A stretch of DNA of 18,875 bases from assembly GCA_050749405.1 (NCBI GenBank), contig JBOGRD010000002.1, positions 155,754-174,628 of the forward strand, written 5' to 3'. Made by a program: the position numbers and the translations under genes. Below are positions 274-14,988 of the stretch, one piece after another. Below the pieces are notes generated by a model that had not been told where the DNA came from, did no database searches, and saw only the letters and a list, made by a program, of their open reading frames with translations. The stretch is from Nitrosotalea sp. (GTDB lineage Archaea; Thermoproteota; Nitrososphaeria; Nitrososphaerales; Nitrosopumilaceae). Position 1 is the first letter of the stretch. Every line of letters begins with the position of its first letter.

Positions 274-1005
274 ATGCGTTTTCTTATGCATAACTTCACT
301 GCTGAACAGATACAGCAGTTAAACGAAAAACTAAAGACGCCGCAAGATGTTCTCAAATGGGCATTAGATAATCTTCACCCCAAAATAGCCATGGCATCAA
401 GTTTTGGAGCAGAGGACGTTGTAGTAATCGATATGATGATGAAAATAAACCCAAAATCTAGAATCTTTACACTTGATACTGGCAGATTAAATCAAGAGAC
501 ATATGATGTCATGGATGAGATAAGAAACAAGTACAACACAAACATCGAAGTAATGTTTCCAGATTCTAATGAAGTTGAACAAATGGTTCGTGTCAATGGC
601 ATGAATTTATTTTATCAGAGTATGGTAAATCGTAAACTATGTTGTGGCATCAGAAAAGTTCATCCACTCAAGAAAATGCTTTCAACCGTAGATGGATGGA
701 TAACTGGACTAAGAGCTGACCAAACTGAAGTGAGGTCTAACGTACAAAGAATTGAGATTGATCCACAACACAATGGTATCATAAAAGTAAATCCGATAAT
801 TGAATGGACTTGGGAGCAAACTTGGGATTACATTAAGAATAATGGTGTACCTTACAACAAACTTCACGACAAGGGATATCCTAGCATAGGATGTGAACCT
901 TGCACACGTGCAATCAAACCGGGGGAACCATTACGGGCAGGACGCTGGTGGTGGGAAACAGATCCCCAAAAAGAATGTGGATTGCATGCGGAACACGGAA
1001 AGTAA
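274..1005 (+). CDS. cysH: Adenylylsulfate (APS)/PAPS reductase, thioredoxin-dependent, of the Fe-S-containing CysH type
   Basis: PAPS-reductase fold motifs are present (SSFGAEDVVVIDM, FTLDTGRLNQETY) plus the C-terminal catalytic ECGLH. A CC pair (residues 123-124) and CEPC (207-210) match the CC...CxxC [4Fe-4S] signature of APS-specific reductases. It lies directly upstream of sat. A leaderless start at ATG 286 is an alternative. Confidence 0.9.
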   Translation: MRFLMHNFTAEQIQQLNEKLKTPQDVLKWALDNLHPKIAMASSFGAEDVVVIDMMMKINPKSRIFTLDTGRLNQETYDVMDEIRNKYNTNIEVMFPDSNEVEQMVRVNGMNLFYQSMVNRKLCCGIRKVHPLKKMLSTVDGWITGLRADQTEVRSNVQRIEIDPQHNGIIKVNPIIEWTWEQTWDYIKNNGVPYNKLHDKGYPSIGCEPCTRAIKPGEPLRAGRWWWETDPQKECGLHAEHGK

Positions 1006-1022
1006 CATTCTAGGTAAATGAT

Positions 1023-2153
1023 ATGGGTACTGCGCAACCACATGGCGGTAAGCTAGTAAACAGATCTACAAACAAAAACCAAGATAACCTGTTTTCGATA
1101 CAAGTCGACGCTGATCTGGCAAGCGATATTGAAAATATATCTGATGGTATATTCAGTCCACTTGAGGGATTTCTTCTACGAGAAGATTTTGAGAAGGTGA
1201 TCACAAAGGGAAGATTAGCAAATGATCTTCCCTGGACAGTTCCAATAGTGCTTGATGTTGATAAAGAAACTGCAACAAAGATGAAAGATGCAAAAGACGT
1301 TGCACTAAGTGTTAACGGTACAAAATTTGCAGTCTTGCATGTAGAAGAGATCTACACATTTGATAAAAATGCAACAGCAAAGGGAGTTTATGGTACAACT
1401 GATGAAAAACATCCCGGAGTAGCAAAAACCATGTCGATGAAAGAATCTCTAGTGGGGGGCAAAATTGATTATATTGCAAGACCAGCAGAAACGCCAATTC
1501 GCAGATACAGAAAAACCCCAAGAGAAACAAGGGAACTGTTTGAAAAGGCAGGGTGGAAGACAATAGTTGGATTTCAAACTAGAAATGTGCCACATGTTGC
1601 ACATGAGATGCTTCAAAAGGCATCACTGAACACACACGACGGGCTTTTTGTTAATCCTCTAATAGGGAAGAAAAAATCAGGCGATTACAAGGATGAAGTA
1701 ATAGTTACAGCCTATGAGACACTGATCAAGTACTACTATCCACAGAATCGCTGCCATCTTGCTACGCTACACACAGAGATGCGATACGCAGGTCCAAAGG
1801 AAGCTATTCATCATGCCATAATGAGAAAGAACTTTGGATGCACTAATATCATAATAGGCAGAGATCATGCCGGTGTGGGCAATTATTATGATCCCTTTGC
1901 TTCCCAGAGAATATTTGACGATTATCCTGACATTGGAATTGAACCAATATTCTATCCTGCCTTCTTTTATTGCAAAAAATGTTTGTCCTTTGCAAGTGAA
2001 AGAAATTGTCCACACGGACAGGAATTTCAGGAACAGCTTAGCGGTACAAAGCTTAGGACGATGATCCTTGAAAAACAAAGTCCATCAGAATACATGATCC
2101 GACCTGAGGTATCGAAGATACTTATGAATTGGGATAATCCATTTGTCGACTAG
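1023..2153 (+). CDS. sat: Sulfate adenylyltransferase (ATP sulfurylase), short form without an APS-kinase domain
   Basis: The N-terminus is [20 protein letters not shown] corresponds to the QTRNPxHRAH motif, and GRDHAGVG is present. The C-terminal CKKC-x8-CPH resembles the Cys3His zinc site described for the Thermus ATP sulfurylase. The start is ATG, 17 nt after cysH. Confidence 0.93.
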
Positions 2154-2165
2154 ATTTTTATTGAA

Positions 2166-2852
2166 ATGAATCCAGCTCATCTTATGCGTAGCCTGGCACT
2201 TGTTGCACTTTTACTGGTAACGCCACTTTTACCGGTATATGCTCAAGAAGCTACGATGAATAAATCAGTACACTATGATACAGTAGAGATACCTGCTGCC
2301 GCATTTAATGTTGTAAGAGATAACGGCACTTTCTTCAAGCTACCTCATGAACATGTTACTAATTGGCAACTTACCATGGAAAATAAGCTCACATATGCAA
2401 ATCCAAACGGCAATGCTATAATCAGACTTTACGAAGATCCTAAGGAACAGAAATTCATCGAGGTTGGGATGGGCAGTCCTCCCAATCATAGATTATGGGT
2501 AGCTGTCAATACTCCAGCTGATGGATACTTTGTGATTCTAGATGAAAGGACAGGTGGATGGAGCCCAGGCCAGATCGTAACAGTACAACACACTAGTAAC
2601 GGTGGATTATCTGCTTCAATAGGCCAGCAGGTGCTTGTTGACAATTTGGATGTGGCAGGATTCACAGTAAGGGATATTGACGCATCTGGGCTGGACTCAA
2701 CTTCTGACCCTCCAGCCACATCCTCAGGAAGCATTTCCATAAACATAGTTTCAGGAGATCCTGCACAAAACCCAATCTTCTACTTGCCATTTATTGTAGT
2801 TGGAGTAACTGGTGCCTTGATTGGCATTTTAATGAAGACTAAGAAGAGATAG
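2166..2852 (+). CDS. Secreted hypothetical protein with an N-terminal signal peptide and a C-terminal tripartite anchor
   Basis: The signal peptide is MNPAHLMRSLALVALLLVTPLLPVYA/QEA. The C-terminal tail is PIFYLP + FIVVGVTGALIGILM + KTKKR (motif, TM helix, basic cluster). The middle part looks beta-rich and I did not recognise a family. The gene begins 12 nt after sat on the same strand. Confidence 0.6.
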   Translation: MNPAHLMRSLALVALLLVTPLLPVYAQEATMNKSVHYDTVEIPAAAFNVVRDNGTFFKLPHEHVTNWQLTMENKLTYANPNGNAIIRLYEDPKEQKFIEVGMGSPPNHRLWVAVNTPADGYFVILDERTGGWSPGQIVTVQHTSNGGLSASIGQQVLVDNLDVAGFTVRDIDASGLDSTSDPPATSSGSISINIVSGDPAQNPIFYLPFIVVGVTGALIGILMKTKKR

Positions 2853-3516
2853 TCTTGTAATAATTACACTCTTTTTTTATCTTACAGACTGTACACATTG
2901 GAGATATTGGTTTACAGATATTCTGGCCATACATGACAAATGTATCATTTATCCGAATCCAATGTTTTCTTGGAATTTTTTTCATTAGCTCAACCTCTGT
3001 GTCTTCTGGGGTCTTTGTCTGAACAAGTCCAATCCTATTTGAAATTCTGTGCACATGTGTATCTACAGGTATGGCAGGCTTGTCAAATGCGTACACCAGA
3101 ACACAATTTGCAGTTTTCCGGCCCACGCCTGGCAGCTCAACTAGCTTGTCCAATGTTTGTGGCACCTTGCCAGAATACCTTGAATCTATTATGGACGCTA
3201 CTTCTATTATGCGCCTTGCCTTTACGTGATAAAATCCTGTTGACTTGATAATCTTTTCAACATCTGAAATCTTTGCGCCTGCAAGGGCATGGGCTGTCTT
3301 GTATCGTGAAAATAATTTTCTGACCACTGCAGATGTATTTTCATCTCTTGTTCGTGCTGAAAGTATTGTTCCAATAAGAATGCTCAAAGGGCTTCCATTT
3401 TCAGCTTCACGCAATTGTCGTAATGCAGTCATTCGGGGTGGCTTGACCGCATCCATCGTCTTTATCATTCCATCTAGAATTTTTTCTATCTTATCCAACT
3501 GATCACATTTGATCAT
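2839..3516 (-). CDS. nth: Endonuclease III (HhH-GPD DNA glycosylase/AP lyase with a 4Fe-4S cluster)
   Basis: The helix-hairpin-helix LPGVGRKTANCVL carries the catalytic Lys, and the catalytic Asp sits in PVDTHVHRISNR. The C-terminal Fe-S loop is C-x6-C-x2-C-x5-C (CKPISPMCTVCKIKKEC). ATG start; its 3' end overlaps the convergent upstream gene by 14 bp. Confidence 0.92.
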   Translation of the reverse strand: MIKCDQLDKIEKILDGMIKTMDAVKPPRMTALRQLREAENGSPLSILIGTILSARTRDENTSAVVRKLFSRYKTAHALAGAKISDVEKIIKSTGFYHVKARRIIEVASIIDSRYSGKVPQTLDKLVELPGVGRKTANCVLVYAFDKPAIPVDTHVHRISNRIGLVQTKTPEDTEVELMKKIPRKHWIRINDTFVMYGQNICKPISPMCTVCKIKKECNYYKTISS

Positions 3517-3550
3517 AAAGTATTATATCTGTTATAACAAGATCATCATA

Positions 3551-4708
3551 TTGGAGCTAACAAAAGAAGAAGAATCTGTGCTTGCTGGAAAACATGGAGA
3601 AACTCTTGCACTTGCATACAGAGTTCTTGTGGCAATAGGTGAGGCTACAGGGGCAGACAAACTGATTCCAGTAGAGTGGGCTCATCTGTCTGGAGTAAAT
3701 TATAATACCATAGGTGATGCAGGGGAGGAATTTCTTTCACATATTAGCAAAGATGCAAAATTTAAGATAAAAACCACTGTAAACCCAATGGGGTTTGATT
3801 CTGATAGTGTTTCAAAGTTTGAACTTGATGAGGAATTTATCAAAAAACAAAATAGCATCAGACAATCGTATGAGAAGATGGGTGCCATATCATCTTTTTC
3901 TTGCATTCCATATGAAATATTTGAGCTCCCAAAAAAAGGAACCCAAGTATCTTTTGCAGAAAGTAACGCTGCCATTTATGCAAATTCAATTTCTACCCTA
4001 AAAACTAACAAAGAAAGTGCGTTCAGTGCACTAGCGAGTGCAATTACTGGAAAAAGCATCTACTCTGATTTACGAGACGATGAAAGTAGAAAACCAAATC
4101 TCACCATAAGAATGAAGACCAAACAGAAAGATGAACTGACATACGGTTTGTTGGGATATTTTGCGGGAAAGGAAGCAGGCAGCTCAGTTGCCATATCTGG
4201 CGTAAAAGAACTAGATAGACGTAGCTGCAAATCATTATGCGCAGGAATGGGAACCTCTGGAAGCTGTGGTATGTTTACTCTGGGAGAAGGAGAGGGGGGA
4301 GAAAAGATGGACTTTGATGATAAAGAGATGAAGAATGTCAAAGACGAACTCAATACGGCAGAATCAGGCGATGTTATTACGCTGGGAAGCCCACAACTCG
4401 GACTGGAGGAAATATCAGATCTGACAACTAAACTAAAGGGGCAATCATTTAGAAAACGCTGCATGATTTTCTGTCCACGGGCTATACAGGGACAGATTAA
4501 AAACCTAGGCTATGATAAAGAGCTAAGCCGAGCTGGCGCAGAAGTACTCTATGATTGTTGCATATGCCTGACTCCGCTCATAGACAAAGAAGATGTCGAT
4601 TCTGTCATTACAAACAGCGTTAAGGGGGCATATTATCTGAGAACATCAAACGGCGTAGATGTCAATCTAAAAAGTCTTGATCAAATTGTTCAAGAGGAGA
4701 CAAAATGA
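3551..4708 (+). CDS. Aconitase X (DUF521) catalytic/large subunit; probable phosphomevalonate dehydratase large subunit of the archaeal mevalonate pathway
   Basis: The N-terminus (L/M)ELTKEEESVLAGKHGETLALAYRVLVAIGE is typical of AcnX/DUF521. Conserved cysteines lie in SFSCIPYE and the C-terminal region. It is coupled to a DUF126 subunit by an ATGA overlap at 4705-4708. The ORF-track start (3509) is itself a TTG and overlaps the divergent nth start, so I prefer the in-frame TTG at 3551. There is no ATG before residue ~95. Confidence 0.8.
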   Translation: MELTKEEESVLAGKHGETLALAYRVLVAIGEATGADKLIPVEWAHLSGVNYNTIGDAGEEFLSHISKDAKFKIKTTVNPMGFDSDSVSKFELDEEFIKKQNSIRQSYEKMGAISSFSCIPYEIFELPKKGTQVSFAESNAAIYANSISTLKTNKESAFSALASAITGKSIYSDLRDDESRKPNLTIRMKTKQKDELTYGLLGYFAGKEAGSSVAISGVKELDRRSCKSLCAGMGTSGSCGMFTLGEGEGGEKMDFDDKEMKNVKDELNTAESGDVITLGSPQLGLEEISDLTTKLKGQSFRKRCMIFCPRAIQGQIKNLGYDKELSRAGAEVLYDCCICLTPLIDKEDVDSVITNSVKGAYYLRTSNGVDVNLKSLDQIVQEETK

Positions 4709-5088
4709 ATGCAAGGATAATCGTTAGGGGAAAAGCAAAAGGCACTGTACTTTGCGCAGAAAATCCAGTGAATTTTCTTGGGGGTGTAGACAAGATAACG
4801 GGAAGGATACGGGACGAGAATCATGATCTCTTTGACAAATTTGTAGGAGGCAGGATTCTTGTATTTCCAAAAGGTATAGGCAGCAGTGTCGGTGCATATA
4901 CAATTTACTCACTAAAATACAACAAATGTGCACCACTTGCAATGATATGTCTCAAGGCAGATATTACAACAGCATCGGGTTGTGCAATCTCAAACATTCC
5001 ATTGGTTGTGGCAGAAAAGAAAGACTATGAATCCCTTAAAGATGGTCAAGAGGTCACAGTTGATGCAATAGAAGGCAAGATACTATAG
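4705..5088 (+). CDS. Aconitase X swivel-domain (DUF126) small subunit; probable phosphomevalonate dehydratase small subunit
   Basis: The 127-aa protein has the DUF126 pattern: GKAKGTVL...PVNFLGGVDKITGRIRDENHDL...GGRILVFPKGIGSSVGAYTIY...APLAMI. Its ATG overlaps the upstream stop (ATGA). Confidence 0.8.
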   Translation: MNARIIVRGKAKGTVLCAENPVNFLGGVDKITGRIRDENHDLFDKFVGGRILVFPKGIGSSVGAYTIYSLKYNKCAPLAMICLKADITTASGCAISNIPLVVAEKKDYESLKDGQEVTVDAIEGKIL

Positions 5089-5685
5089 TTCTATTCGTAC
5101 TACTGGGCCACTTGGTTCTGTTTCTTTGAATACAATCCCCTCGAATCGTAAAACTACCGTACCCTTTTGCTTCCAATAATCAAACGGAGCCCCTGCCTTC
5201 TCACATGTATGAGATAGAAATTCTTCTTCATTCCATCCGTATTCTACAGGGACCTGAGGAAGCAGAAGACCAGAACCAAACTCCCATTTTACAATTAGTC
5301 CGTCTCTACCAACCCTTATCTTAGATGGATACTCTGATGGATCTTGTACCTTTACCACTTCGGGAGGAGTCAAAATTGTTATCTCAAAAGTAATCTTGTC
5401 CAATTCATCATATTTTACAGGCAAAAATCGCGGATCTTCTGTTGCTGATGCTATAGATGCATCCAAAAGAGATTGGTATAGTTTTCTATCTGGTGTTGGA
5501 AATCCTATACAACCTCTGAGATTTTCTTCTTTGTTTAGAGTAACAAACACTCCAGAGTTGAAGGAAAATCTAGATTTGATTTCACTAGAAAGTGCTGTCT
5601 GCTTTCCGGTTTGGAGATATTCCATGACAACTGATCTTGCTGTCCTGACAAGTAACTCTCCATCTTGATCAGATATTACACTCAT
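5083..5685 (-). CDS. AMMECR1 domain protein
   Basis: AMMECR1-family motifs are present (GVFVTLNK...LRGCIGFP, DPRF.PV, LLPQV) and the ~200 aa length is typical of archaeal members. The ORF-track start at 5778 is a TTG that would overlap the upstream gene by ~97 nt. The ATG at 5685-5683 forms an ATGA overlap with the upstream stop and gives the family-typical N-terminus MSVISDQDGELLVRTAR. Confidence 0.85.
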   Translation of the reverse strand: MSVISDQDGELLVRTARSVVMEYLQTGKQTALSSEIKSRFSFNSGVFVTLNKEENLRGCIGFPTPDRKLYQSLLDASIASATEDPRFLPVKYDELDKITFEITILTPPEVVKVQDPSEYPSKIRVGRDGLIVKWEFGSGLLLPQVPVEYGWNEEEFLSHTCEKAGAPFDYWKQKGTVVLRFEGIVFKETEPSGPVVRIEL

Positions 5686-6173
5686 TTCAATCTCTGGTTT
5701 AGTTTTTCTACAAACTCTTGAATCTTTATCAAGTGAGTTCCTTCCCAGTAAATTTTTTTGCAACCCTTGCAAATCCAAAATTTTTCCTGTCTTTCATAAA
5801 TTCCGAGTGGAACCTTCTCCATGATTCTTATTTTATCAATAGCCTCGATTTTTCCATTACAATTGACACATCTTGAAGAGTTGGTGTCAATTACAAAATT
5901 TGAAAGACCGATCTTTTTTGCAATCTGGATTAGCTGCTCAATCTCATCATTTCCTCTAATGAGGACTGTCGTAATGCCGCCTATCTTTTCAGCACTTTTG
6001 GAAAGATTTTCGTCTTTTGTAACTATGACACGCCTTTGATTCTCTGCAAATTTGATCAATTCTGAATCCTCAATTGAAGACTCGTACTTGGAATCATAGC
6101 CAAGAATACGCAATTTTCTTGCCAAGTTCCCAAGCATTGCATCTACAACAAAACTAGGCTTATGTGCACTCAA
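5682..6173 (-). CDS. Mut7-C RNase domain protein (PIN-like nuclease fused to a C-terminal zinc ribbon; PF01927/DUF82-like)
   Basis: The N-terminal FVVDAMLGNLARKLRILGYD is the hallmark Mut7-C opening. The C-terminal CVNC...CKGC is the zinc ribbon. The start codon is TTG (complement of 6171-6173) and overlaps the NFACT stop as TTGA. Confidence 0.8.
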   Translation of the reverse strand: MSAHKPSFVVDAMLGNLARKLRILGYDSKYESSIEDSELIKFAENQRRVIVTKDENLSKSAEKIGGITTVLIRGNDEIEQLIQIAKKIGLSNFVIDTNSSRCVNCNGKIEAIDKIRIMEKVPLGIYERQEKFWICKGCKKIYWEGTHLIKIQEFVEKLNQRLK

Positions 6174-8098
6174 TATCCTTGACCAATACCTGACTCTACT
6201 ATGTGACCATCTCCAGCAGGAAGTGCACGTATAAAATCATCAATATTAAATGCCTTAACAACATCTTGGTTTTCTGCAAGTTTTAGAAATTCCAGTCTTA
6301 CCTTTTTTGCAAGATCTGTCATATCAGTTCCAGATGGTTCTATAATTACATAAAACAAGCATCTCATCTTCACTGCTGGTAGTGGACCAGACATGATTGT
6401 ATAGCTGTCATCTTTTTGATACAACCCTATGGCCAGCTGCAAGTTGGAAACTTGAACAAAGTTTCTAGTACCCTCTATCGGGAATGCTCCCTTTGCAAGA
6501 AATTGACCAGTAGGAGCTCCCATCTTGATCTGATCTGGCTTTACCCAGTAGGCATTTAATCCGTACAATCCTTCCCTCCACGCTCTACTAAAGCAGACCG
6601 TAGCTTGCGCTACTTCTGTTATGCTTGATATCATGTCATCTTTACTATCCTTTAGGATAAAAAATGGTGATCCCACTATCTCTGCGTGGAAGACTCTGTC
6701 ATCTTTACCTAGGTGTTTTCTAATTACCGAAGAATTGGAAGATGCATCTCGTCCTCCAATTGCCAAAAGTCCATCTGAAGTAAAAAACCACCTGTATCTC
6801 TCATACCATTCTTTCTTTTTCTGTATTGCAAAAACAATGGAATTTTGTGCGATAGTGGCCTGCTTTCTTAATGCCTCCAAATTCTTTTCAGTCTTGATTT
6901 TTTCTGACCCTATTGTCTCAATTGCTTTTAATTGTCGTTTTGATTCGTTAAACAAGACAGAAGCTATGGCCTGAATCGATGATTGTGGATTAATCTTTAC
7001 TTTATCTTCTTCGATATTTATCATTAGTATGCCACTTTCTCTTATCAGAGAAGAATGGTATTCTTGCAATAGTGGCGGAACTCTTGAATCCTCGATGGAT
7101 GTAACTCCAATTGATGCCAAACCAAAGAGAGCCTTGGCAACTTTGGATATTGATTCAGCTCTTTGCTTAACCAATGAGATTGCCTTGTTTTGCTCCTCAA
7201 GTTTATGCTCAACCTCCGTTATCTTTTGGCTTACGGTATCAGTCTGCGTCGTCTTTCCCTGCTCTAGAAGATTTTCAGAAAACAATGAATCCAGCCCTTC
7301 CATAAAACTAGACACTTGGCTGACATTTTTTTGTGAAACATCTCCAAGCGGTATGGGATACACGTCTGCTCCCTTGTCATCACGAACAATGCATGGCTCG
7401 TGTTTTCCATTGACAACTTTTTCAATCAGCTCCCTTGTCGCCTGATATATCTTGGCAACCTCTTCGCTAGACAATGTGTTTCCCAATCTCTGGCCGTCTA
7501 CATCAGATCTCTTCATTATCTCCTCTGCATATTTGGAGGGCAATCCCAGAGTTCTGCCAATCCACCTTACTGCCACAGTAGATGCAGATCTTATCTCCTC
7601 CAGATCTTTTTGTGTAACTTTAAAAATATCTGAGCCGCTTGATGGAGGAGGTACATACGTTAGGCCAACCCCTAACTTTCTATGCCTTACATCAATTGAA
7701 TGAAGAAGCGACAGGATCTTCATCTCTTTATTGCACAAAAGTATGTTGCCATCACCAAAAAACTCCCCAATCAGAATAAATTCTTGGTTAAAACCGCTAA
7801 ATGTAACTTGGACTATTCTTTCACTACCAATTTGCTCAACGTTAGTAATTCTTGCGCGAAGAAGATCATTTCTGAGTCTCTTTACCAGTCTGTTCTCCTC
7901 CATCTGACTTATCTTTACATTGGTAATCCAAAATCCAAATGTGGAAAACATGAGCAAAAGATCTGGCTTTTCGGGATGATGCAACTTGAAGAGAAGACTA
8001 TTGCGGGTTATACCATAGATATTGCTGACATAATAGTCCTTTGTCTTACTGGATATTTCATTTACCAGATAACATAATTCAATTCCTGCAAGCGTCAT
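6170..8098 (-). CDS. NFACT-family protein (archaeal Rqc2/NEMF/RqcH homologue; FbpA N-terminal + DUF814)
   Basis: The 642-aa protein has an NFACT-N region (GSERIVQVTF...IGEFFGDGNILL), a central coiled-coil segment, and an NFACT-R/DUF814 region (WYERYRWFFTSDGLLAIGGRDASSNSSVIRKHL...VFHAEIVGSPFFILK). ATG start. Confidence 0.88.
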   Translation of the reverse strand: MTLAGIELCYLVNEISSKTKDYYVSNIYGITRNSLLFKLHHPEKPDLLLMFSTFGFWITNVKISQMEENRLVKRLRNDLLRARITNVEQIGSERIVQVTFSGFNQEFILIGEFFGDGNILLCNKEMKILSLLHSIDVRHRKLGVGLTYVPPPSSGSDIFKVTQKDLEEIRSASTVAVRWIGRTLGLPSKYAEEIMKRSDVDGQRLGNTLSSEEVAKIYQATRELIEKVVNGKHEPCIVRDDKGADVYPIPLGDVSQKNVSQVSSFMEGLDSLFSENLLEQGKTTQTDTVSQKITEVEHKLEEQNKAISLVKQRAESISKVAKALFGLASIGVTSIEDSRVPPLLQEYHSSLIRESGILMINIEEDKVKINPQSSIQAIASVLFNESKRQLKAIETIGSEKIKTEKNLEALRKQATIAQNSIVFAIQKKKEWYERYRWFFTSDGLLAIGGRDASSNSSVIRKHLGKDDRVFHAEIVGSPFFILKDSKDDMISSITEVAQATVCFSRAWREGLYGLNAYWVKPDQIKMGAPTGQFLAKGAFPIEGTRNFVQVSNLQLAIGLYQKDDSYTIMSGPLPAVKMRCLFYVIIEPSGTDMTDLAKKVRLEFLKLAENQDVVKAFNIDDFIRALPAGDGHIVESGIGQGY

Positions 8099-8257
8099 AA
8101 TGAATCGTTATCACTCCAAAATTATACTCTTGCTATTGTAGGCTTCCAAACGTTGTGAACCATTTACCCTTACGGAGGGTAGGATTGCAAGAGTTTGAAG
8201 AAAAAAGACAATTCTACACTTGGACGCGATATCTTTGGTGTTAAATTCCAGTAATTC

Positions 8258-8743
8258 ATGCCTTACTCTCATAACGGTAAATATTTACACAGGCTTCACC
8301 GAGTGAGTTTGAAAATTTACTTGGTAAGACATCCAAAAGGCAAAGACAGCGATAAGAAATCAGGACCAAGTGATAACCCTGCAAAGGACACACCTCCTGA
8401 GGAACCACGTGCTATGGAGACTGACGAATCTAGGATAAAGAGCGGCCTTGACAAGGTGTTTTGGTTGCGCGTTGGTCTGGGCATACTAGCTGGAGCTATT
8501 TCTGCCATAATTGGAAAACCCATGGATCTGGATTCAAGAATATTTATAGGATTTGGAACCATGATCGCACTGTTCATAGTTTCATATGGAATTGCCAAGT
8601 CCCTTCGAGTACCACTGTTGCCATCAGACAAGAGAAAACTTATCATGACTGGTATTGGGAGCTACTTCCTGATGTTCATATTTAGTTGGATTCTGGTAAA
8701 TACCATAATCAATCCAGATGTTGGCATTGGAATAGTGCATTAG
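8258..8743 (+). CDS. Hypothetical integral membrane protein (about 3 TM helices, K/P/D-rich N-terminal tail)
   Basis: Hydrophobic segments: VFWLRVGLGILAGAISAIIG, IFIGFGTMIALFIVSYGIA, LIMTGIGSYFLMFIFSWILVNTII. The start is uncertain. ATG 8258 is the longest option. A TATA-like AAATATTTA at ~8279-8287 lies inside that extension and would favour TTG 8321 or ATG 8414. Confidence 0.55.
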   Translation: MPYSHNGKYLHRLHRVSLKIYLVRHPKGKDSDKKSGPSDNPAKDTPPEEPRAMETDESRIKSGLDKVFWLRVGLGILAGAISAIIGKPMDLDSRIFIGFGTMIALFIVSYGIAKSLRVPLLPSDKRKLIMTGIGSYFLMFIFSWILVNTIINPDVGIGIVH

Positions 8744-8783: not shown

Positions 8784-9374
8784 ATGTGGAAATATAGAAC
8801 CCCTGGCATTCCAGATGAACTATTTGAAAGAGTAGAAGAGGTACCAATTACAAAAGAAGAAGTACGCACAGTACAAATTAGTAAAGGCAGGCTTGACCAG
8901 GGCCAAACTGTATATGACATTGGATGTGGAAGCGGGTCTGTATCAATAGAAGCTGCCCATCAAATAGGTGTAACAGGAAAAGTTTTTGCAATTGATTTTG
9001 ATCCAAAAGCAGTAGAACTTAGCAAGAAAAACCTATCAAAATTTGGGGTATCAAATGTTACAGTCATTTTAGGAAATGCGCTAGAAAAAATTTCAGAACT
9101 TCCTGTAGCTGATGTCATATTTATTGGGGGAACAGGAGGCGATACATCTGAGATACTAAAACTCTGTGAGGGAAAGCTCAAGCAAGGAGGGAGAATAGTG
9201 ATAGGAACCATTTTGATTGAGACCCTTTATTCTGTACTTTCAGCTATGGAAAAACTCCAATTTTCATCCGTTGATATCACTCAAGTTACAATATCCAAGA
9301 GCCGCAAGACATCTACTGGTACCATGATGCTAGCTAGAAATCCTGTCACCATAATCTCTGCAACAAAAATCTAG
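8784..9374 (+). CDS. cbiT: Cobalt-precorrin-6B C15-methyltransferase (decarboxylating)
   Basis: The N-terminal signature PGIPDELFERVEEVPITKEEVR is present, with the SAM-binding motif VYDIGCGSGSVSIE. At 196 aa the length is typical. TAAATAT lies ~30 bp upstream of the ATG. Confidence 0.88.
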   Translation: MWKYRTPGIPDELFERVEEVPITKEEVRTVQISKGRLDQGQTVYDIGCGSGSVSIEAAHQIGVTGKVFAIDFDPKAVELSKKNLSKFGVSNVTVILGNALEKISELPVADVIFIGGTGGDTSEILKLCEGKLKQGGRIVIGTILIETLYSVLSAMEKLQFSSVDITQVTISKSRKTSTGTMMLARNPVTIISATKI

Positions 9375-9487
9375 CCAATATCTTTCTATCATTGTCTAAT
9401 CAACGCCAAAATATGGATCTGAATACAAATTGCCTTCAAACAAATAATCAACAGAGCTTGCTATTCATAATCGACTTACACTATTTA

Positions 9488-9880
9488 TCAGACCGAAGGA
9501 TCTGATTTTAAAAATTCCTTCAGTTTGGAAACCGAGCCACCAAGATTCATAGTCTTTATTGCAAGGTTTGCCTGATCTTTTATCAATTCAGGACTTGATA
9601 TGACATCATCCAAAGAAAGCATACTCAGCTGCATATTCAGAGTTGTCAAGAATGGATCCCTCATTGCATTTCTGATCATGTTTAACAAATCATGGTCAAC
9701 TGGCGGCTCACTTGCTACTAGATTGTAGACATGCTGCATTTGATGGTAGGTATTGATTATTGAGCTTAATTCGTTTACCAAGTCCTTGGCACTGCCTCCG
9801 CTAGATTCGATACGCATTATATTTTTGTAAGATTCTAGAATCTTATCTAGAAGTGCCTTGAATTGTTCCATAGAGCTCAT
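9488..9880 (-). CDS. Hypothetical all-helical protein (130 aa), family not recognised
   Basis: A clean ATG-initiated ORF with no competing ORF on either strand. The composition looks helix-forming (MEQFKALLDKILESYKNIMRIE...). It lies antisense between cbiT and cbiL. Confidence 0.5.
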   Translation of the reverse strand: MSSMEQFKALLDKILESYKNIMRIESSGGSAKDLVNELSSIINTYHQMQHVYNLVASEPPVDHDLLNMIRNAMRDPFLTTLNMQLSMLSLDDVISSPELIKDQANLAIKTMNLGGSVSKLKEFLKSDPSV

Positions 9881-10115
9881 TACGTATGTGTTATCATTAT
9901 AAAAATCAGGGTCATATTAAGATCGGCAATAAAAGCAATCAAGTGGTTCCAATCTGGAAATATCAACAATAAAGCGTGTCTCAAAAATCATTCTTTTTGT
10001 ATTGCATGACTAGCTCCAAAAACAAAAAATGTTACACTGATTATTTTGCATATGCTATGAAACATATTTCCAAAAAATCTAGCTTTTAATTAGGTACCAC
10101 CACGACTTTCATTAA

Positions 10116-10838
10116 ATGGCTGAATTGACATGCGTTGGTTGTGGTCCAGGCGACCCGGATCTTCTTACCGTAAAGGCAGTAAAGGCCATTCAAAGTGCTG
10201 ACGTGATCATGTGCCCCACTTCAAGGGAAGGCAAAGAAAGCATTGCATACTCTATAATATCATCATTAGTTGATAATTCCAAAAAACCTGACATCATGAA
10301 CTTGGTATTTCCAATGGTAAAGGACAGGGAGACTTTGGAGAACACGTGGAAAACCAATGCACGCATAATAGCTGACAAAGTAAAAGATGGGAAAAACGTT
10401 GTATATCTTACAGTGGGAGATCCGTCACTATACAGTACATGGATTTACCTGCAACGTGAGCTCAAGTCAAAATATCCTGAGATCAAGATAACAGTGGTTC
10501 CTGGAATAGTATCCATGTTTGCTTTTGCATCCAAGGTGGGAATCAGCATAGCAGAAGGGGATGAAACGGTTGCCGTGATACCTGCGTGCTATGACCTTTC
10601 TAGAGTAAAAGAGACTGCAAAGAACTGTGATACCATGATATTTCTAAAAGATGGTAGGTATTTTGATCAGGTCATTGCGCTGCTAAGAGAGGCCGGCTTT
10701 CCTGACAGCTCACTTTTTGCCATAGCTCAAGACGTAGGAACAAATGAAGAAATTGTAAAGAAATTAACACTTGGCGAGGTCACAAAGGACACATTGACCA
10801 GCAAATATTTTTCAATCATGGTGGTAAAACGTGCATAA
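10116..10838 (+). CDS. cbiL: Cobalt-factor II / precorrin-2 C20-methyltransferase
   Basis: A tetrapyrrole methylase fold (VGCGPGDPDLLTVKAVKAIQSADVI, LTVGDPSLYST, VPGIVS). The FPM...W segment (LVFPMVKDRETLENTW) is characteristic of CbiL/CobI. The TATA-like CTTTTAATTAGG ~28 bp upstream of the ATG suggests a leaderless or short-leader mRNA. Confidence 0.82.
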   Translation: MAELTCVGCGPGDPDLLTVKAVKAIQSADVIMCPTSREGKESIAYSIISSLVDNSKKPDIMNLVFPMVKDRETLENTWKTNARIIADKVKDGKNVVYLTVGDPSLYSTWIYLQRELKSKYPEIKITVVPGIVSMFAFASKVGISIAEGDETVAVIPACYDLSRVKETAKNCDTMIFLKDGRYFDQVIALLREAGFPDSSLFAIAQDVGTNEEIVKKLTLGEVTKDTLTSKYFSIMVVKRA

Positions 10839-11598
10839 AGTATACTTTGTTGGCTGTGGTCCGGGTGATCCCGAACTGATTACAGTCAAGGCCAAAAAAT
10901 TAATCCAAAAAGCTGATGTGGTCGTATACTCTGGCTCGTTGATCCCGCCTGCGATAGTCAAGCTCTGTAAAAGAGCCGAACTGCATGATGCTGCAAAACT
11001 AGTAAGAGAAGACATTTTCAAGATTCTACGGAATAACGCATTGAAAGGAAAACTAGTTGTTAGATTACATGATGGCGATCCCTCAATCTATGGAGCGATA
11101 AGGGAGCAGACTGACAACCTCAAAAAGGAGGGAATAGGATTTGAGGTAGTTCCAGGAATTACTTCCTTCTTGGCATCTGCTGCAGCGTTAGGCTGTGAGC
11201 TTACACTCCCCGGTGTTACGCAAACCATAATTGTAACAAGGGCAGAATCACGAACCAAAGTTCCAACAAGAGAGAAAATTTCAGAGCTTGCCAAGCACAA
11301 AGCTACCATGATATTCTATCTGAGTGTTCATCTCATATCAGATATTGTTAAGGAAGCCATCAAGGGAGGATATCCCAAGTCAACTCCTGTAGCAGCTGTA
11401 TATCGAGCAAGCTGGAGCGATGAAAAAATAATAAGAGGGACACTTGAAAACATTGCAAAAAAAATCAGAGATGAAAAAATTACAAAAACTGCAATCATAA
11501 TTATCGGTGAAATTGTAAACCCAAAGCACTATGAATATTCTAGACTATATGACAAAACTTTCAGCCATGGATACCGAAAGGCAAAAGTAATTTCATAG
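10831..11598 (+). CDS. cbiF: Cobalt-precorrin-4 C11-methyltransferase
   Basis: VYFVGCGPGDPELITVKA...ADVVVYSGSLIPP and VVRLHDGDPSIYGAIREQ match CbiF/CobM. The GTG start overlaps the cbiL 3' end by 8 nt. Confidence 0.88.
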   Translation: MHKVYFVGCGPGDPELITVKAKKLIQKADVVVYSGSLIPPAIVKLCKRAELHDAAKLVREDIFKILRNNALKGKLVVRLHDGDPSIYGAIREQTDNLKKEGIGFEVVPGITSFLASAAALGCELTLPGVTQTIIVTRAESRTKVPTREKISELAKHKATMIFYLSVHLISDIVKEAIKGGYPKSTPVAAVYRASWSDEKIIRGTLENIAKKIRDEKITKTAIIIIGEIVNPKHYEYSRLYDKTFSHGYRKAKVIS

Positions 11599-14346: not shown

Positions 14347-14988
14347 ATGACCGGCTTCGATAAGACCTGGACTCGTCCCGAGTCTGCAGGTTTAAGCGAA
14401 AAATTACGTGAAACTGTAAAACCACAGGGTGCACTCAAACCTAGAATTGAGGGCGCTGTGAACAAATTACAGGGTCAGATATCGAAGATGGATTCTATGC
14501 TGACAAAGCTGAGACAAAGAGATGAACAGCTTTTCAAGCGAATCGTAACCGCCATGCAACAGCACGATGCGAGCACAAGCAGAGTTCTGTCCAACGAGCT
14601 TGCCGAGATAAGAAAGGTCACAAAAATGCTAGGAAACGCCAGAATGGCACTAGAGCAAGTACAATTGCGTCTAACAACAATACACGACCTAGGAGACGCA
14701 ATGGTAGCAATAGCTCCTGCAATGTCTACAATGAAGGGACTCAAATCATCCCTTGGAAGATTTATGCCAGAGGCAGATTCCGAACTGAACTCTATGACCC
14801 AGACACTCAATGGACTAATGATGGACTCGCTGGCAGGAGGAGACTTTAACGTAGACTCTGACGTATCAAGCGAAGAGACAGACAAGATACTCCAAGAGGC
14901 ATCCGCAGTTGCAGAACAGCAAATCGGCGACAGATTCCCATCAGTTCCATCACCCTCCGGCGTATCGTCACAATCAACATACGAGTAG
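14347..14988 (+). CDS. cdvB: ESCRT-III / Snf7-family cell-division protein (CdvB paralogue)
   Basis: The 213-aa helical protein has the Snf7-like core (LEQVQLRLTTIHDLGDAMVAIAPAMSTMKGLKSSL...). It has an acidic C-terminal region and a proline-rich tail, DRFPSVPSPSG. Thaumarchaeota divide with Cdv proteins. ATAATATA lies ~40 bp upstream. Confidence 0.85.
   Translation: MTGFDKTWTRPESAGLSEKLRETVKPQGALKPRIEGAVNKLQGQISKMDSMLTKLRQRDEQLFKRIVTAMQQHDASTSRVLSNELAEIRKVTKMLGNARMALEQVQLRLTTIHDLGDAMVAIAPAMSTMKGLKSSLGRFMPEADSELNSMTQTLNGLMMDSLAGGDFNVDSDVSSEETDKILQEASAVAEQQIGDRFPSVPSPSGVSSQSTYE

What the first reader, a model, noticed from the sequence alone, without database searches (positions are those of the whole stretch)
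5083..8098. Tightly coupled NFACT (Rqc2-like) / Mut7-C RNase / AMMECR1 operon: a candidate archaeal ribosome-quality-control module
Three minus-strand genes are joined by 4-nt start/stop overlaps: TTGA at 6170-6173 and ATGA at 5682-5685. This is the classic signature of translational coupling and of products that act together. The first gene has the full NFACT-N / coiled-coil / NFACT-R architecture of Rqc2/NEMF/RqcH, which bind obstructed large ribosomal subunits. The second is a PIN-like Mut7-C nuclease with a CxxC...CxxC zinc ribbon. The third is AMMECR1, a universally conserved protein with no established biochemical function, proposed on fold grounds to bind nucleic acids or nucleotides. 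A nuclease and AMMECR1 hard-wired to the archaeal NFACT protein would suggest a stalled-ribosome rescue pathway in which mRNA or peptidyl-tRNA is cleaved. It would also give AMMECR1 a functional context. To my knowledge this trio has not been described as a system.
Basis: partly seen in the sequence, partly recalled or inferred. Interest (0 to 1): 0.72.

Follow-up and report, generated by a model that had tools for sequence, protein, structure and literature searches.

The report
Known archaeal RqcH–Mut7-C–AMMECR1 operon
Three overlapping genes in this Nitrosotalea-like archaeon (ribosome-rescue protein RqcH, a Mut7-C PIN-like putative RNase, AMMECR1) are a real operon whose linkage recurs across archaea, but the trio was already described in 2014 and 2019 and its biochemistry is still untested.

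Summary
Three minus-strand genes (6170-8098 RqcH, 5682-6173 Mut7-C, 5083-5685 AMMECR1) pass curated family thresholds and overlap by 4 nt at exactly the stated places. A conserved TATA box lies about 23 nt upstream of the RqcH ATG.

The novelty claim does not hold. Burroughs & Aravind 2014 (PMC4075521) reported NFACT + Mut7-C RNase + AMMECR1 as a conserved neighbourhood across archaeal lineages, thaumarchaeota included. Makarova et al. 2019 list AMMECR1 as linked to the PIN/Zn-ribbon gene.

My survey of 167 RqcH loci supports a functional link. Mut7-C sits by RqcH in at least seven arrangements, spanning Nitrososphaeria, Thermoprotei, Sulfolobales, Bathyarchaeia, Asgard and Halobacteriota-like loci. 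One Asgard ORF fuses Mut7-C to AMMECR1. Four Asp and the Zn-ribbon Cys are invariant.

The link is not hard-wired. The pair is cleanly missing in Nitrosopumilus/Nitrosopelagicus. AMMECR1 is solitary in the Thermococcales and Methanosarcina loci examined.

Elsewhere RqcH neighbours Pelota and ABCE1, which fits a ribosome-quality-control role.

A by-product may be new. An EMC6-like membrane-protein gene (8258-8743) lies head-to-head with RqcH across phyla.

The parts
8121..8126 (-). TATA box (TATAAT) of the operon promoter, about 23 nt upstream of the RqcH ATG. This implies a leaderless or near-leaderless transcript.
   Evidence: Read. The hexamer is invariant in 8 Nitrosotalea-group loci while the spacer down to the ATG varies (alignment A5). 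Promoter function is inferred, not measured.
6170..8098 (-). aRqcH (archaeal Rqc2/NEMF homologue), 642 aa: NFACT-N plus middle/coiled-coil region, NFACT-R, and a C-terminal region.
   Evidence: Pfam NFACT_N 4.5e-42 and NFACT-R_1 6e-24. NCBIfam RqcH_arch 528 bits against a cutoff of 400. 97% identical to a Nitrosotalea MAG RqcH. It carries the family-invariant residues E112, G117, N118, R140, K387, W431, G449, N455, D467 and H471.
6170..6173 (-). TTGA start/stop overlap between RqcH and Mut7-C.
   Evidence: The same -4 position holds TTG in L001, L003 and L006-L010, and ATG in L004.
5682..6173 (-). Mut7-C (PF01927) PIN-like putative metal-dependent RNase with a C-terminal CxxC...CxxC zinc ribbon, 163 aa.
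   Evidence: Pfam 6.6e-43 over the full profile length. D11, D27, D36, D54, R22, R48, C102, C105, C135, C138, W143 and G145 are invariant in 59 RqcH-linked homologues from several phyla. No solved homologue was found by sequence.
5682..5685 (-). ATGA start/stop overlap between Mut7-C and AMMECR1.
   Evidence: In most Nitrosopumilales trio loci the predicted start also overlaps the Mut7-C stop (-4, -11, -14 or -17); in a few it lies 1-2 nt after it.
5083..5685 (-). AMMECR1 / TIGR00296 family protein, 200 aa, with the LRGCIG cysteine motif.
   Evidence: Pfam 6.6e-52. TIGR00296 221 bits against a cutoff of 91. Aligns end to end with solved structures 1VAJ (PH0010, 3.7e-56), 1ZQ7 and 1WSC. Its stop codon overlaps the convergent AcnX small-subunit gene, which ends at 5088.
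8258..8743 (+). Head-to-head neighbour: an EMC6-like small membrane protein. The homologous part is residues ~67-147; the N-terminal low-complexity part and the true start are uncertain. It may be a fourth, more widely conserved partner of RqcH.
   Evidence: Pfam EMC6 15 bits, below threshold, for the window copy. Homologues reach EMC6_arch 29 and 58 bits against a cutoff of 26.7. It lies head-to-head with RqcH in 72 of 80 Nitrososphaeria loci (77 have at least 500 nt upstream) and in 38 of 87 other archaeal loci (79 have at least 500 nt upstream).

Best explanation
The locus is a tricistronic operon, aRqcH > Mut7-C > AMMECR1. It is a Nitrosotalea-lineage instance of the archaeal NFACT neighbourhood already described by Burroughs & Aravind (2014).

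Shown here:
- The three family assignments.
- No intergenic space between the genes.
- A conserved TATA box ~23 nt upstream of the first ATG.
- Recurrence of the RqcH-Mut7-C(-AMMECR1) association in many arrangements across archaeal phyla.
- An intact set of four acidic residues plus a Zn ribbon in the Mut7-C protein.
- Pelota and ABCE1 next to RqcH in other archaea.

Inferred mechanism:
1. aPelota/aABCE1 split a stalled ribosome.
2. aRqcH binds the 50S subunit that still holds peptidyl-tRNA. By homology with bacterial RqcH and eukaryotic Rqc2/NEMF, it drives template-free C-terminal tailing.
3. Mut7-C, made from the same mRNA, is a metal-dependent RNase or RNA-binding factor that acts on the RNA presented by RqcH. 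The most likely substrate is the acceptor end of the trapped peptidyl-tRNA, which would release the nascent chain. That would be functionally analogous to eukaryotic Vms1/ANKZF1, which archaea appear not to have.
4. AMMECR1 works as Mut7-C's partner, using its conserved Cys cleft on the cleavage product (tRNA end or peptidyl-nucleotide remnant).

The pair is an accessory to RqcH, not an obligatory part of it.
For: Anatomy. Promoter. Tight junctions conserved in 24 loci.

Prior description of the neighbourhood 'across all archaeal lineages'. arCOG linkage of AMMECR1 to the PIN+Zn-ribbon gene.

Independent survey, by arrangement:
- Co-directional and overlapping in Nitrosopumilales.
- RqcH > CBS > Mut7-C in Nitrososphaerales.
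- RqcH > CBS > Mut7-C > AMMECR1 in a Thermoprotei MAG.
- RqcH > CBS > amidohydrolase > Mut7-C in Asgard and Bathyarchaeia, with AMMECR1 added in L171.
- Head-to-head NFACT <> EMC6-like > Mut7-C > AMMECR1 in Sulfurisphaera.
- Head-to-head RqcH <> Mut7-C in 12 Halobacteriota-like loci.
- A fused Mut7-C::AMMECR1 ORF overlapping the RqcH stop in an Asgardarchaeia contig.

Enrichment: 21 of 87 non-Nitrososphaeria RqcH loci hold Mut7-C within ~6 kb. My rough estimate for a single-copy gene by chance is about 0.5 loci.

Other support:
- Four invariant Asp plus four Cys in 59 sequences.
- Pelota immediately downstream of RqcH and ABCE1 head-to-head with it in euryarchaeal-type loci.
- Vms1 is stated to be of bacterial provenance in eukaryotes.
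Against: - No experiment exists on any archaeal RQC component in the searchable literature.
- The only biochemistry on MUT7-C domains shows RNA binding, not cleavage. [quoted passage not shown] - The pair is dispensable next to RqcH. It is cleanly missing in Nitrosopumilus/Nitrosopelagicus with the flanking synteny intact. Mut7-C alone is missing in L015 and L041.
- AMMECR1 is solitary in the Pyrococcus, Thermococcus and Methanosarcina loci examined.
- AMMECR1 also passes the AmmeMemoRadiSam protein-A model, which points to a different partnership.
- Within Nitrososphaeria general synteny is high, so conservation inside the class carries little weight.
- Overlapping junctions are common in this genome.
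- Co-transcription, translational coupling and substrate identity are all inferred.
Confidence: 0.45

Rival explanations
1. RNA-modification pathway, the original 2014 proposal. AMMECR1 is an enzyme that transfers a group onto an RNA base through its conserved cysteine. Mut7-C processes the same RNA (rRNA or tRNA). NFACT supplies RNA recognition. In this reading the module modifies or repairs ribosomal or transfer RNA rather than releasing nascent chains.
For: Proposed by Burroughs & Aravind and repeated as 'not mutually exclusive' in 2019. The AMMECR1 Cys motif LRGCIG is intact. AMMECR1 passes the AmmeMemoRadiSam protein-A model, which suggests an enzyme- or radical-SAM-linked chemistry. AMMECR1 is retained without RqcH or Mut7-C neighbours in Thermococcales and Methanosarcina, in one case next to an RsmB/NusB-type RNA methyltransferase.
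Against: From established knowledge, not tested here: NFACT-N is now understood as a tRNA/ribosome-binding module of RQC factors, not a glycosylase. RqcH sits next to Pelota and ABCE1 in other archaea, which points to rescue rather than biogenesis. No modification has ever been assigned to AMMECR1.
Confidence: 0.2
2. Mut7-C is a non-catalytic RNA-binding accessory that stabilises P-site tRNA on the 50S during tailing, playing the role of bacterial RqcP or eukaryotic eIF5A. AMMECR1 is a co-factor of unknown role. No RNA is cleaved.
For: MUT7-C domains of C. elegans MUT-7 and human EXD3 contribute to RNA binding, and no nuclease activity has been shown for them. The authors suggest RNA binding as the ancestral role. 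No RqcP-like S4-domain gene was seen in the window.
Against: Four aspartates (D11, D27, D36, D54) are invariant in all 59 RqcH-linked homologues across phyla. That pattern is typical of a metal-binding catalytic site and unnecessary for plain binding. Burroughs & Aravind call the archaeal version 'active'.
Confidence: 0.2
3. The adjacency is genomic happenstance: inherited synteny in compact genomes, with the three proteins working in unrelated processes.
For: Synteny across Nitrososphaeria is generally very high. The unrelated cobalamin gene cbiT is next to RqcH in 73 of 80 loci, more often than Mut7-C (42 of 80) or AMMECR1 (26 of 80). Overlapping junctions are common in the window. The linkage is lost in many lineages.
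Against: The association reappears in at least seven different gene orders and orientations in lineages that share no other synteny. It includes one gene fusion. Enrichment over my rough chance estimate is about 40-fold. The linkage was found independently by two earlier comparative studies.
Confidence: 0.05
4. Mut7-C is a PIN-like toxin of a toxin-antitoxin or defence module that happens to sit in this operon.
For: The Mut7-C structural group contains COG4634, PIN_10 and PIN_16 families, which are predicted TA toxins. There are weak sub-threshold hits to PIN_10 and DUF5615.
Against: The protein matches PF01927 proper at 147 bits, while PIN_10 scores 18.5 against a cutoff of 26.2. No small antitoxin-like gene is present. 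The context is housekeeping, single-copy and vertically conserved, with no compositional anomaly.
Confidence: 0.03

Closest known systems
Conserved archaeal NFACT + Mut7-C RNase + AMMECR1 gene neighbourhood (Burroughs & Aravind, RNA Biol 2014, PMC4075521; also arCOG01336-arCOG04290 linkage, Makarova et al. 2019, PMC6393860)
   Same: The same three families, the same predicted operon, and thaumarchaeota explicitly included. The window is simply one instance of it.
   Different: The published interpretation was an RNA base-modification pathway. Knowledge about RqcH/Rqc2 gained since 2015 re-frames it as ribosome quality control. The papers as searched (main text of the 2014 paper; the AMMECR1 entry of the 2019 table) do not mention several things seen here: the lineage-specific losses, the Asgard fusion, the CBS/amidohydrolase inserts, and the EMC6-like, Pelota and ABCE1 neighbours.
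Bacterial RQC (B. subtilis RqcH + RqcP/YabO, Ala-tailing, ClpXP degradation)
   Same: The NFACT-N/NFACT-R protein is homologous. A role on obstructed large subunits is expected.
   Different: No S4-domain RqcP homologue lies in the window. Bacterial NFACT genes have no conserved neighbourhood. Neither Mut7-C nor AMMECR1 is part of the bacterial system.
Eukaryotic RQC release step (Vms1/ANKZF1 cleavage of the tRNA 3' end; ELAC1/TRNT1 repair)
   Same: It works like this only by inference: a nuclease coupled to the Rqc2-type factor could free the nascent chain from 50S-bound peptidyl-tRNA.
   Different: Vms1 has an eRF1-like fold, not a PIN-like one, and is stated to be of bacterial provenance in eukaryotes. 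There is no homology to Mut7-C. The activity has not been shown here.
MUT-7/EXD3 C-terminal MUT7-C domain (Busetto et al., NAR 2024, PMC11347159)
   Same: The same Pfam family (PF01927) with the Zn-coordinating cysteines. Prokaryotic stand-alone proteins are described there as the minimal form.
   Different: In animals the domain is appended to a DEDD exonuclease and serves RNA binding or partner recruitment. Here it stands alone with four invariant Asp and is linked to RqcH.
AmmeMemoRadiSam system (AMMECR1 + MEMO1-like + radical-SAM activase; TIGR04335-7)
   Same: The AMMECR1 protein passes the protein-A model at 190 bits against a cutoff of 99.
   Different: No MEMO-like or radical-SAM gene was detected in the 18.9-kb window. 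The partner here is Mut7-C.

Membership tests
aRqcH / NFACT (Rqc2/NEMF) family | NFACT-N plus middle coiled-coil plus NFACT-R architecture, scoring above the curated equivalog threshold. | tested here: met
   Pfam NFACT_N residues 5-418 and NFACT-R_1 residues 435-543. NCBIfam RqcH_arch 528 bits against a cutoff of 400, covering 2-644 of 645 profile positions.
aRqcH / NFACT (Rqc2/NEMF) family | Family-invariant residues of NFACT-N and NFACT-R. | tested here: met
   E112, G117, N118, R140, K387, W431, G449, N455, D467, H471 and G476 are invariant in 42 diverse archaeal homologues and present in the window protein. Mapping them to the B. subtilis DR/EIM motifs rests on memory only.
aRqcH / NFACT (Rqc2/NEMF) family | Binds 50S-peptidyl-tRNA and adds C-terminal tails. 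| not testable with these tools
   No archaeal experiment was found. The only indirect support is Pelota/ABCE1 adjacency in other archaea.
Mut7-C (PF01927) PIN-like domain | Full-length match above the gathering score, with a CxxC...CxxC zinc ribbon. | tested here: met
   146.8 bits against a cutoff of 23.3, covering profile positions 2-145 of 146. C102, C105, C135 and C138 are invariant.
Mut7-C (PF01927) PIN-like domain | Complete acidic active site ('active' version). | tested here: met
   D11, D27, D36 and D54 are invariant in 59 RqcH-linked sequences. Their clustering in 3D could not be checked because the AlphaFold single-sequence model failed at pLDDT 42.7.
Mut7-C (PF01927) PIN-like domain | Ribonuclease activity. 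| not testable with these tools
   Only RNA binding has been shown for MUT7-C domains. Function is listed as unknown.
AMMECR1 / TIGR00296 | Full-length match above curated cutoffs, with the LRGCIG cysteine motif. | tested here: met
   PF01871 175.8 bits against a cutoff of 25; TIGR00296 221 bits against 91. The motif is read. It aligns over residues 4-197 with PH0010 (1VAJ).
Archaeal NFACT-Mut7-C-AMMECR1 neighbourhood (Burroughs & Aravind 2014) | The three genes adjacent, unidirectional and sharing a putative promoter. | tested here: met
   overlaps; single conserved TATA box upstream of RqcH; definition.
AmmeMemoRadiSam system | AMMECR1 accompanied by a MEMO1-like protein and a radical-SAM activase. 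| tested here: not met
   The protein-A HMM is passed, but no Memo or radical-SAM domain appears among the 21 window genes scanned. The rest of the genome is not available.
PIN-type toxin-antitoxin module | PIN_10/COG4634-type toxin with an adjacent small antitoxin, in a mobile or variable context. | tested here: not met
   PIN_10 scores 18.5 bits against a cutoff of 26.2. There is no antitoxin ORF, the context is a conserved housekeeping one, and composition is normal.

The most novel reading that the evidence does not exclude
Archaea may carry a larger ribosome-quality-control gene network centred on aRqcH than has been described, with two parts.
- Mut7-C/AMMECR1 would be the missing release or tRNA-recycling step that frees the tailed nascent chain from 50S-bound peptidyl-tRNA. 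This would give AMMECR1, a conserved protein in the human AMME contiguous-deletion region, its first biochemical role.
- The EMC6-like partner of the archaeal YidC/Oxa1 insertase is kept head-to-head with rqcH from Nitrososphaeria to Asgard and methanogen-like lineages. This could link RQC to ribosomes stalled at the membrane insertase.

I found no published mention of the EMC6-like linkage, or of the Pelota/ABCE1-RqcH adjacency, in the papers I could read.
Probability: 0.2. Interest if true: 0.8.

Novelty: already known. Interest (0 to 1): 0.38.

Why it matters
Archaeal ribosome quality control has not been studied experimentally, and archaea appear to lack the eukaryotic release factor Vms1. 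AMMECR1 has had no assigned activity since it was named, despite solved structures and presence in all three domains of life.

The conserved genomic coupling of RqcH with an apparently active Mut7-C and with AMMECR1 is the best available lead for both problems. It has been in the literature since 2014, so this window adds an instance, not a discovery.

What this check adds:
- A sharper experimental design. Use lineages where the link is present (Sulfolobales, Nitrosotalea) and compare them with natural 'deletion mutants' (Nitrosopumilus).
- A candidate Rosetta-stone fusion of Mut7-C with AMMECR1.
- Support for the RQC reading from Pelota/ABCE1 adjacency.
- A possibly new, broadly conserved RqcH neighbour, the EMC6-like membrane protein.

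Tried and rejected
- The genome-contig scan with a 42-sequence RqcH profile returned only Nitrososphaeria. Wider lineages had to come from encoding-contig look-ups and from a metagenome scan led by a euryarchaeal sequence.
- A profile of 'distant' RqcH sequences returned only Bathyarchaeia.
- An exact look-up of the window's Mut7-C found no record.
- A PDB sequence search for Mut7-C gave only chance hits with E above 0.5.
- An AlphaFold single-sequence model of Mut7-C was unusable at pLDDT 42.7. No fold search was run, so the PIN versus TOPRIM question stays open.
- The supplement of the 2014 paper, which lists the neighbourhoods, is not held.
- The sigma-70 promoter and intrinsic-terminator scan does not apply to archaea. 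I used only its TATAAT hit at 8126-8121, and then confirmed that hit by comparative alignment.
- I first misread the Halobacteriota-like Mut7-C genes as convergent with RqcH. Recomputation shows they are head-to-head.
- The right-flank methyltransferase at 8784-9374 looked PrmA-like, i.e. ribosome-related, but it is CbiT of a cobalamin cluster. It is general synteny, not part of the module.
- The toxin-antitoxin and AmmeMemoRadiSam readings were rejected (see the membership tests).
- No tRNA, tmRNA or Rfam family lies in the window.
- I could not determine whether Nitrosopumilus keeps Mut7-C/AMMECR1 elsewhere in its genome, because only +-8 kb was available per locus.

Full report
**1. The observation**

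The window is from a Nitrosotalea-like ammonia-oxidising archaeon. The RqcH protein is 97% identical to a Nitrosotalea sp. MAG protein.

On the minus strand there are three consecutive ORFs:
- 6170..8098, 642 aa, ATG start.
- 5682..6173, 163 aa, TTG start.
- 5083..5685, 200 aa from the ATG at 5685.

Reading the sequence confirms TTGA at 6170-6173 and ATGA at 5682-5685. In each case the start codon overlaps the preceding stop by 4 nt.

Family assignments all pass curated thresholds:
- RqcH: NFACT_N 4.5e-42, NFACT-R_1 6e-24, and NCBIfam 'ribosome rescue protein RqcH, archaeal' at 528 bits against a cutoff of 400.
- Mut7-C: PF01927 at 6.6e-43 over the whole profile, with CxxC...CxxC.
- AMMECR1: PF01871 at 6.6e-52 and TIGR00296 at 221 bits against 91. 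It carries the LRGCIG motif and aligns end to end with the solved PH0010, MM0484 and ST0229 structures.

One caveat applies. Overlapping junctions are common in this genome: 4 of 8 same-strand junctions in the window overlap. The overlap by itself says little.

**2. Operon anatomy**

Upstream of the RqcH ATG there is a TATAAT box at 8126-8121, about 23 nt from the start codon. The hexamer is invariant in eight Nitrosotalea-group loci while the spacer varies. This is what is expected of an archaeal TATA box driving a leaderless mRNA.

There is no non-coding space before Mut7-C or AMMECR1. In all 24 Nitrosopumilales loci with the trio, the conserved DxML motif of Mut7-C starts 10-38 nt after the RqcH stop. 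Predicted start/stop overlaps of -4, -11 or -14 nt recur.

The AMMECR1 stop overlaps the stop of the convergent AcnX small-subunit gene. Base composition is unremarkable. No tRNA or Rfam element is present.

Co-transcription and translational coupling are therefore well-founded inferences, but they are not measured.

**3. Already known**

What remains open is function.
- The 2014 paper proposed an RNA base-modification pathway.
- The PIN classification lists Mut7-C as function unknown.
- The only biochemistry on the domain shows RNA binding in animal MUT-7/EXD3. Those authors question the PIN relationship.
- No experimental paper on archaeal RQC, 'aRqcH' or these arCOGs was found.

**4. Independent survey**

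I collected 167 RqcH loci:
- 80 species-representative genomes, all Nitrososphaeria.
- 80 metagenome contigs 35-43% identical to a euryarchaeal RqcH.
- 7 targeted look-ups.

I scanned them with profiles built in the sandbox and spot-checked hits with Pfam.

*Within Nitrososphaeria*
- The full overlapping trio is present in 24 loci of the Nitrosotalea, Nitrosarchaeum and Nitrosotenuis type.
- 18 Nitrososphaerales loci have RqcH, then a CBS-domain/Zn-ribbon gene, then Mut7-C, with no AMMECR1.
- Nitrosopumilus, Nitrosopelagicus and Cenarchaeum loci have neither gene. In most of these the whole flanking block (cysH-sat-...-AcnX on one side, EMC6-like-cbiT-... on the other) is intact, so that AcnX abuts RqcH directly. 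This is a clean two-gene loss or relocation.
- Two loci (L015, L041) lost only Mut7-C.
- Synteny in this class is generally high; cbiT is next to RqcH in 73 of 80 loci. Conservation inside the class therefore proves little.

*Outside the class*

The association reappears in different architectures:

| Locus / lineage | Arrangement |
|---|---|
| Sulfurisphaera (Sulfolobales) | NFACT head-to-head with EMC6-like > Mut7-C > AMMECR1 |
| Thermoprotei MAG | NFACT > CBS > Mut7-C > AMMECR1 |
| Asgard (Atabeyarchaeum-like) contig | NFACT > CBS > DHOase-like amidohydrolase > Mut7-C |
| Bathyarchaeia contig (L081) | NFACT > 3 CBS genes > DHOase-like amidohydrolase > Mut7-C |
| L171 (lineage unknown) | Same as Asgard, plus AMMECR1 |
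| Asgardarchaeia contig | NFACT, then a single 368-aa ORF fusing Mut7-C to AMMECR1 |
| 12 Halobacteriota-like contigs | Mut7-C head-to-head with RqcH |

The Asgardarchaeia fusion is a continuous reading frame, but it is a single instance. A sequencing indel at an overlapping junction cannot be excluded.

In all, 21 of 87 non-Nitrososphaeria loci have Mut7-C within about 6 kb, and 5 of 87 have AMMECR1, four of those together with Mut7-C. My rough estimate of the chance expectation for a single-copy gene is about 0.5 loci.

Negative cases are real:
- A Bathyarchaeia locus with nothing nearby.
- Pyrococcus-like RqcH loci without partners.
- AMMECR1 solitary in Pyrococcus yayanosii, a Thermococcus and Methanosarcina.

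I draw three conclusions.
- The RqcH-Mut7-C link is ancient and selected.
- AMMECR1 is tied primarily to Mut7-C.
- The pair is accessory rather than obligatory.

**5. Clues to mechanism**

An alignment of 59 RqcH-linked Mut7-C proteins from all these lineages shows invariant D11, D27, D36, D54, R22, R48, the four Zn-ribbon cysteines, W143 and G145. This fits a metal-dependent catalytic site and Burroughs & Aravind's label 'active'. It argues against a purely RNA-binding role, though activity is unproven.

In euryarchaeal-type loci RqcH is followed directly by Pelota (L091, L139, L153, L155, L158). It is also head-to-head with ABCE1 (L091, L094, L099, L102, L108). Pelota and ABCE1 are the factors that split stalled ribosomes. 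This is independent genomic support that archaeal RqcH works in ribosome rescue.

RqcH-type factors act after splitting, on 50S-peptidyl-tRNA, where the mRNA is gone. The most economical substrate for a coupled RNase is therefore the trapped tRNA. That would make Mut7-C a functional analogue (not a homologue) of Vms1/ANKZF1, which eukaryotes are stated to have acquired from bacteria.

AMMECR1, with its conserved Cys cleft, would then process a product.

I rate the operon and 'known neighbourhood' part at about 0.9. I rate the specific release mechanism at about 0.3. The combined statement gets 0.45.

Rivals:
- The original RNA-modification idea (0.2).
- A non-catalytic tRNA-holding role for Mut7-C (0.2).
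- Happenstance synteny (0.05).
- A toxin-antitoxin reading (0.03).

**6. By-products**

The gene divergent from RqcH in the window (8258-8743) is an EMC6-like small membrane protein. Lewis & Hegde 2021 proposed this family as the partner of archaeal YidC. Every one of the nine proteomes they queried contained exactly one such protein, and they mention no NFACT linkage.

It lies head-to-head with RqcH in 72 of 80 Nitrososphaeria loci and in 38 of 87 other archaeal loci. These include Bathyarchaeia, Sulfolobales, both Asgard contigs, and Methanobacteriota- and Pyrohabitans-like contigs. My profile never hit more than once per locus.

This neighbour is more widely conserved than Mut7-C or AMMECR1 in my sample. 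It is not mentioned in the 2014 paper.

It may reflect a shared bidirectional promoter with no deeper meaning, or a link between RQC and membrane-protein insertion. I could not test this further.

**7. Verdict**

The finding is a correct reading of a real operon, and its functional linkage is well supported. However, it re-discovers a published conserved neighbourhood, and thaumarchaeota were explicitly covered.

The RQC re-interpretation is sensible and now better supported by the Pelota/ABCE1 adjacency, the invariant acidic site and the candidate fusion. It remains a hypothesis.

Novelty: already known. Interest is moderate-low for the trio itself. The open biochemical questions, and possibly the EMC6-like linkage, carry higher potential.

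Noticed in passing
window 8258-8743 (+); also L086:4317-4565, L091:4714-4977, L083:4712-4975, L090:1806-2099, L100:5607-5948, L172:4686-4964: An EMC6-like small membrane protein gene sits head-to-head with rqcH. This holds in 72 of 80 Nitrososphaeria loci and 38 of 87 other archaeal loci across several phyla, which is more widely than Mut7-C or AMMECR1. It is not mentioned in the NFACT paper or in the paper that defined archaeal EMC6-like proteins. The start codon of the window copy is uncertain because of a low-complexity N-terminal extension.
   Followed up: partly
L091:7078-7685, L155:7969-9015, L139:7978-9021, L153, L158 (Pelota); L091:2792-4591, L102:3617-5416, L094, L099, L108 (ABCE1): In euryarchaeal-type contigs RqcH is followed directly by Pelota on the same strand, and/or is head-to-head with ABCE1/RLI, the ribosome-splitting factors. 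In the loci surveyed this group shows neither Mut7-C nor AMMECR1 next to RqcH.
   Followed up: partly
L090:4088-5194 (+): A single 368-aa ORF fuses Mut7-C (N-terminal) to AMMECR1 (C-terminal). It overlaps the RqcH stop in an Asgardarchaeia contig. Only one instance was seen. An indel artefact at an overlapping junction cannot be excluded.
   Followed up: partly
L019, L024, L027-L038, L040, L042-L049, L069, L076 versus L001-L026: Nitrosopumilus, Nitrosopelagicus and Cenarchaeum loci lack Mut7-C and AMMECR1. In most of them the flanking synteny is kept, so the AcnX small subunit abuts RqcH. L015 and L041 lost only Mut7-C. Whether the genes exist elsewhere in those genomes could not be checked.
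   Followed up: partly
L061:9984-10583; L173:7027-7839; L172:7139-9326; L081:7163-10880; L171:8023-10033: A CBS-domain gene recurs immediately downstream of RqcH: 24 Nitrososphaeria loci and 11 others. In Nitrososphaerales it carries a C-terminal Zn ribbon. A DHOase-like amidohydrolase gene overlaps the Mut7-C start in Bathyarchaeia, Asgard and L171 (5 loci).
   Followed up: partly
L075:6132-8141; L049:7983-9943: RqcH is split into three ORFs in Candidatus Nitrosotalea sp. FS and into two in Nitrosopumilus salarius BD31. The cause is either frameshifts (pseudogenes) or assembly errors.
   Followed up: no
window 274-5088 and 8784-11598: The flanks are ordinary metabolism. One side holds sulfate assimilation (cysH, sat), endonuclease III and AcnX large and small subunits with a 4-nt overlap. 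The other holds a cobalamin cluster: cbiT at 8784-9374 and two corrin methylases with an 8-nt overlap. The AcnX small-subunit stop overlaps the AMMECR1 stop convergently at 5083-5088.
   Followed up: yes
window 14347-14988 (+): A weak Snf7/ESCRT-III-like ORF (Pfam 7.2e-4, below threshold) lies in the window's highest-GC segment (0.47 against about 0.39). It is probably a CdvB-type cell-division gene.
   Followed up: no
L085:3200-5624; L088:5001-6971: Where AMMECR1 is solitary in Thermococcales, its neighbours are RNA- or tRNA-related. In Pyrococcus yayanosii they are a D-aminoacyl-tRNA deacylase family gene and a nucleotidyltransferase. In a Thermococcus it is a NusB/RsmB-type RNA methyltransferase, tail-to-tail with AMMECR1.
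   Followed up: no
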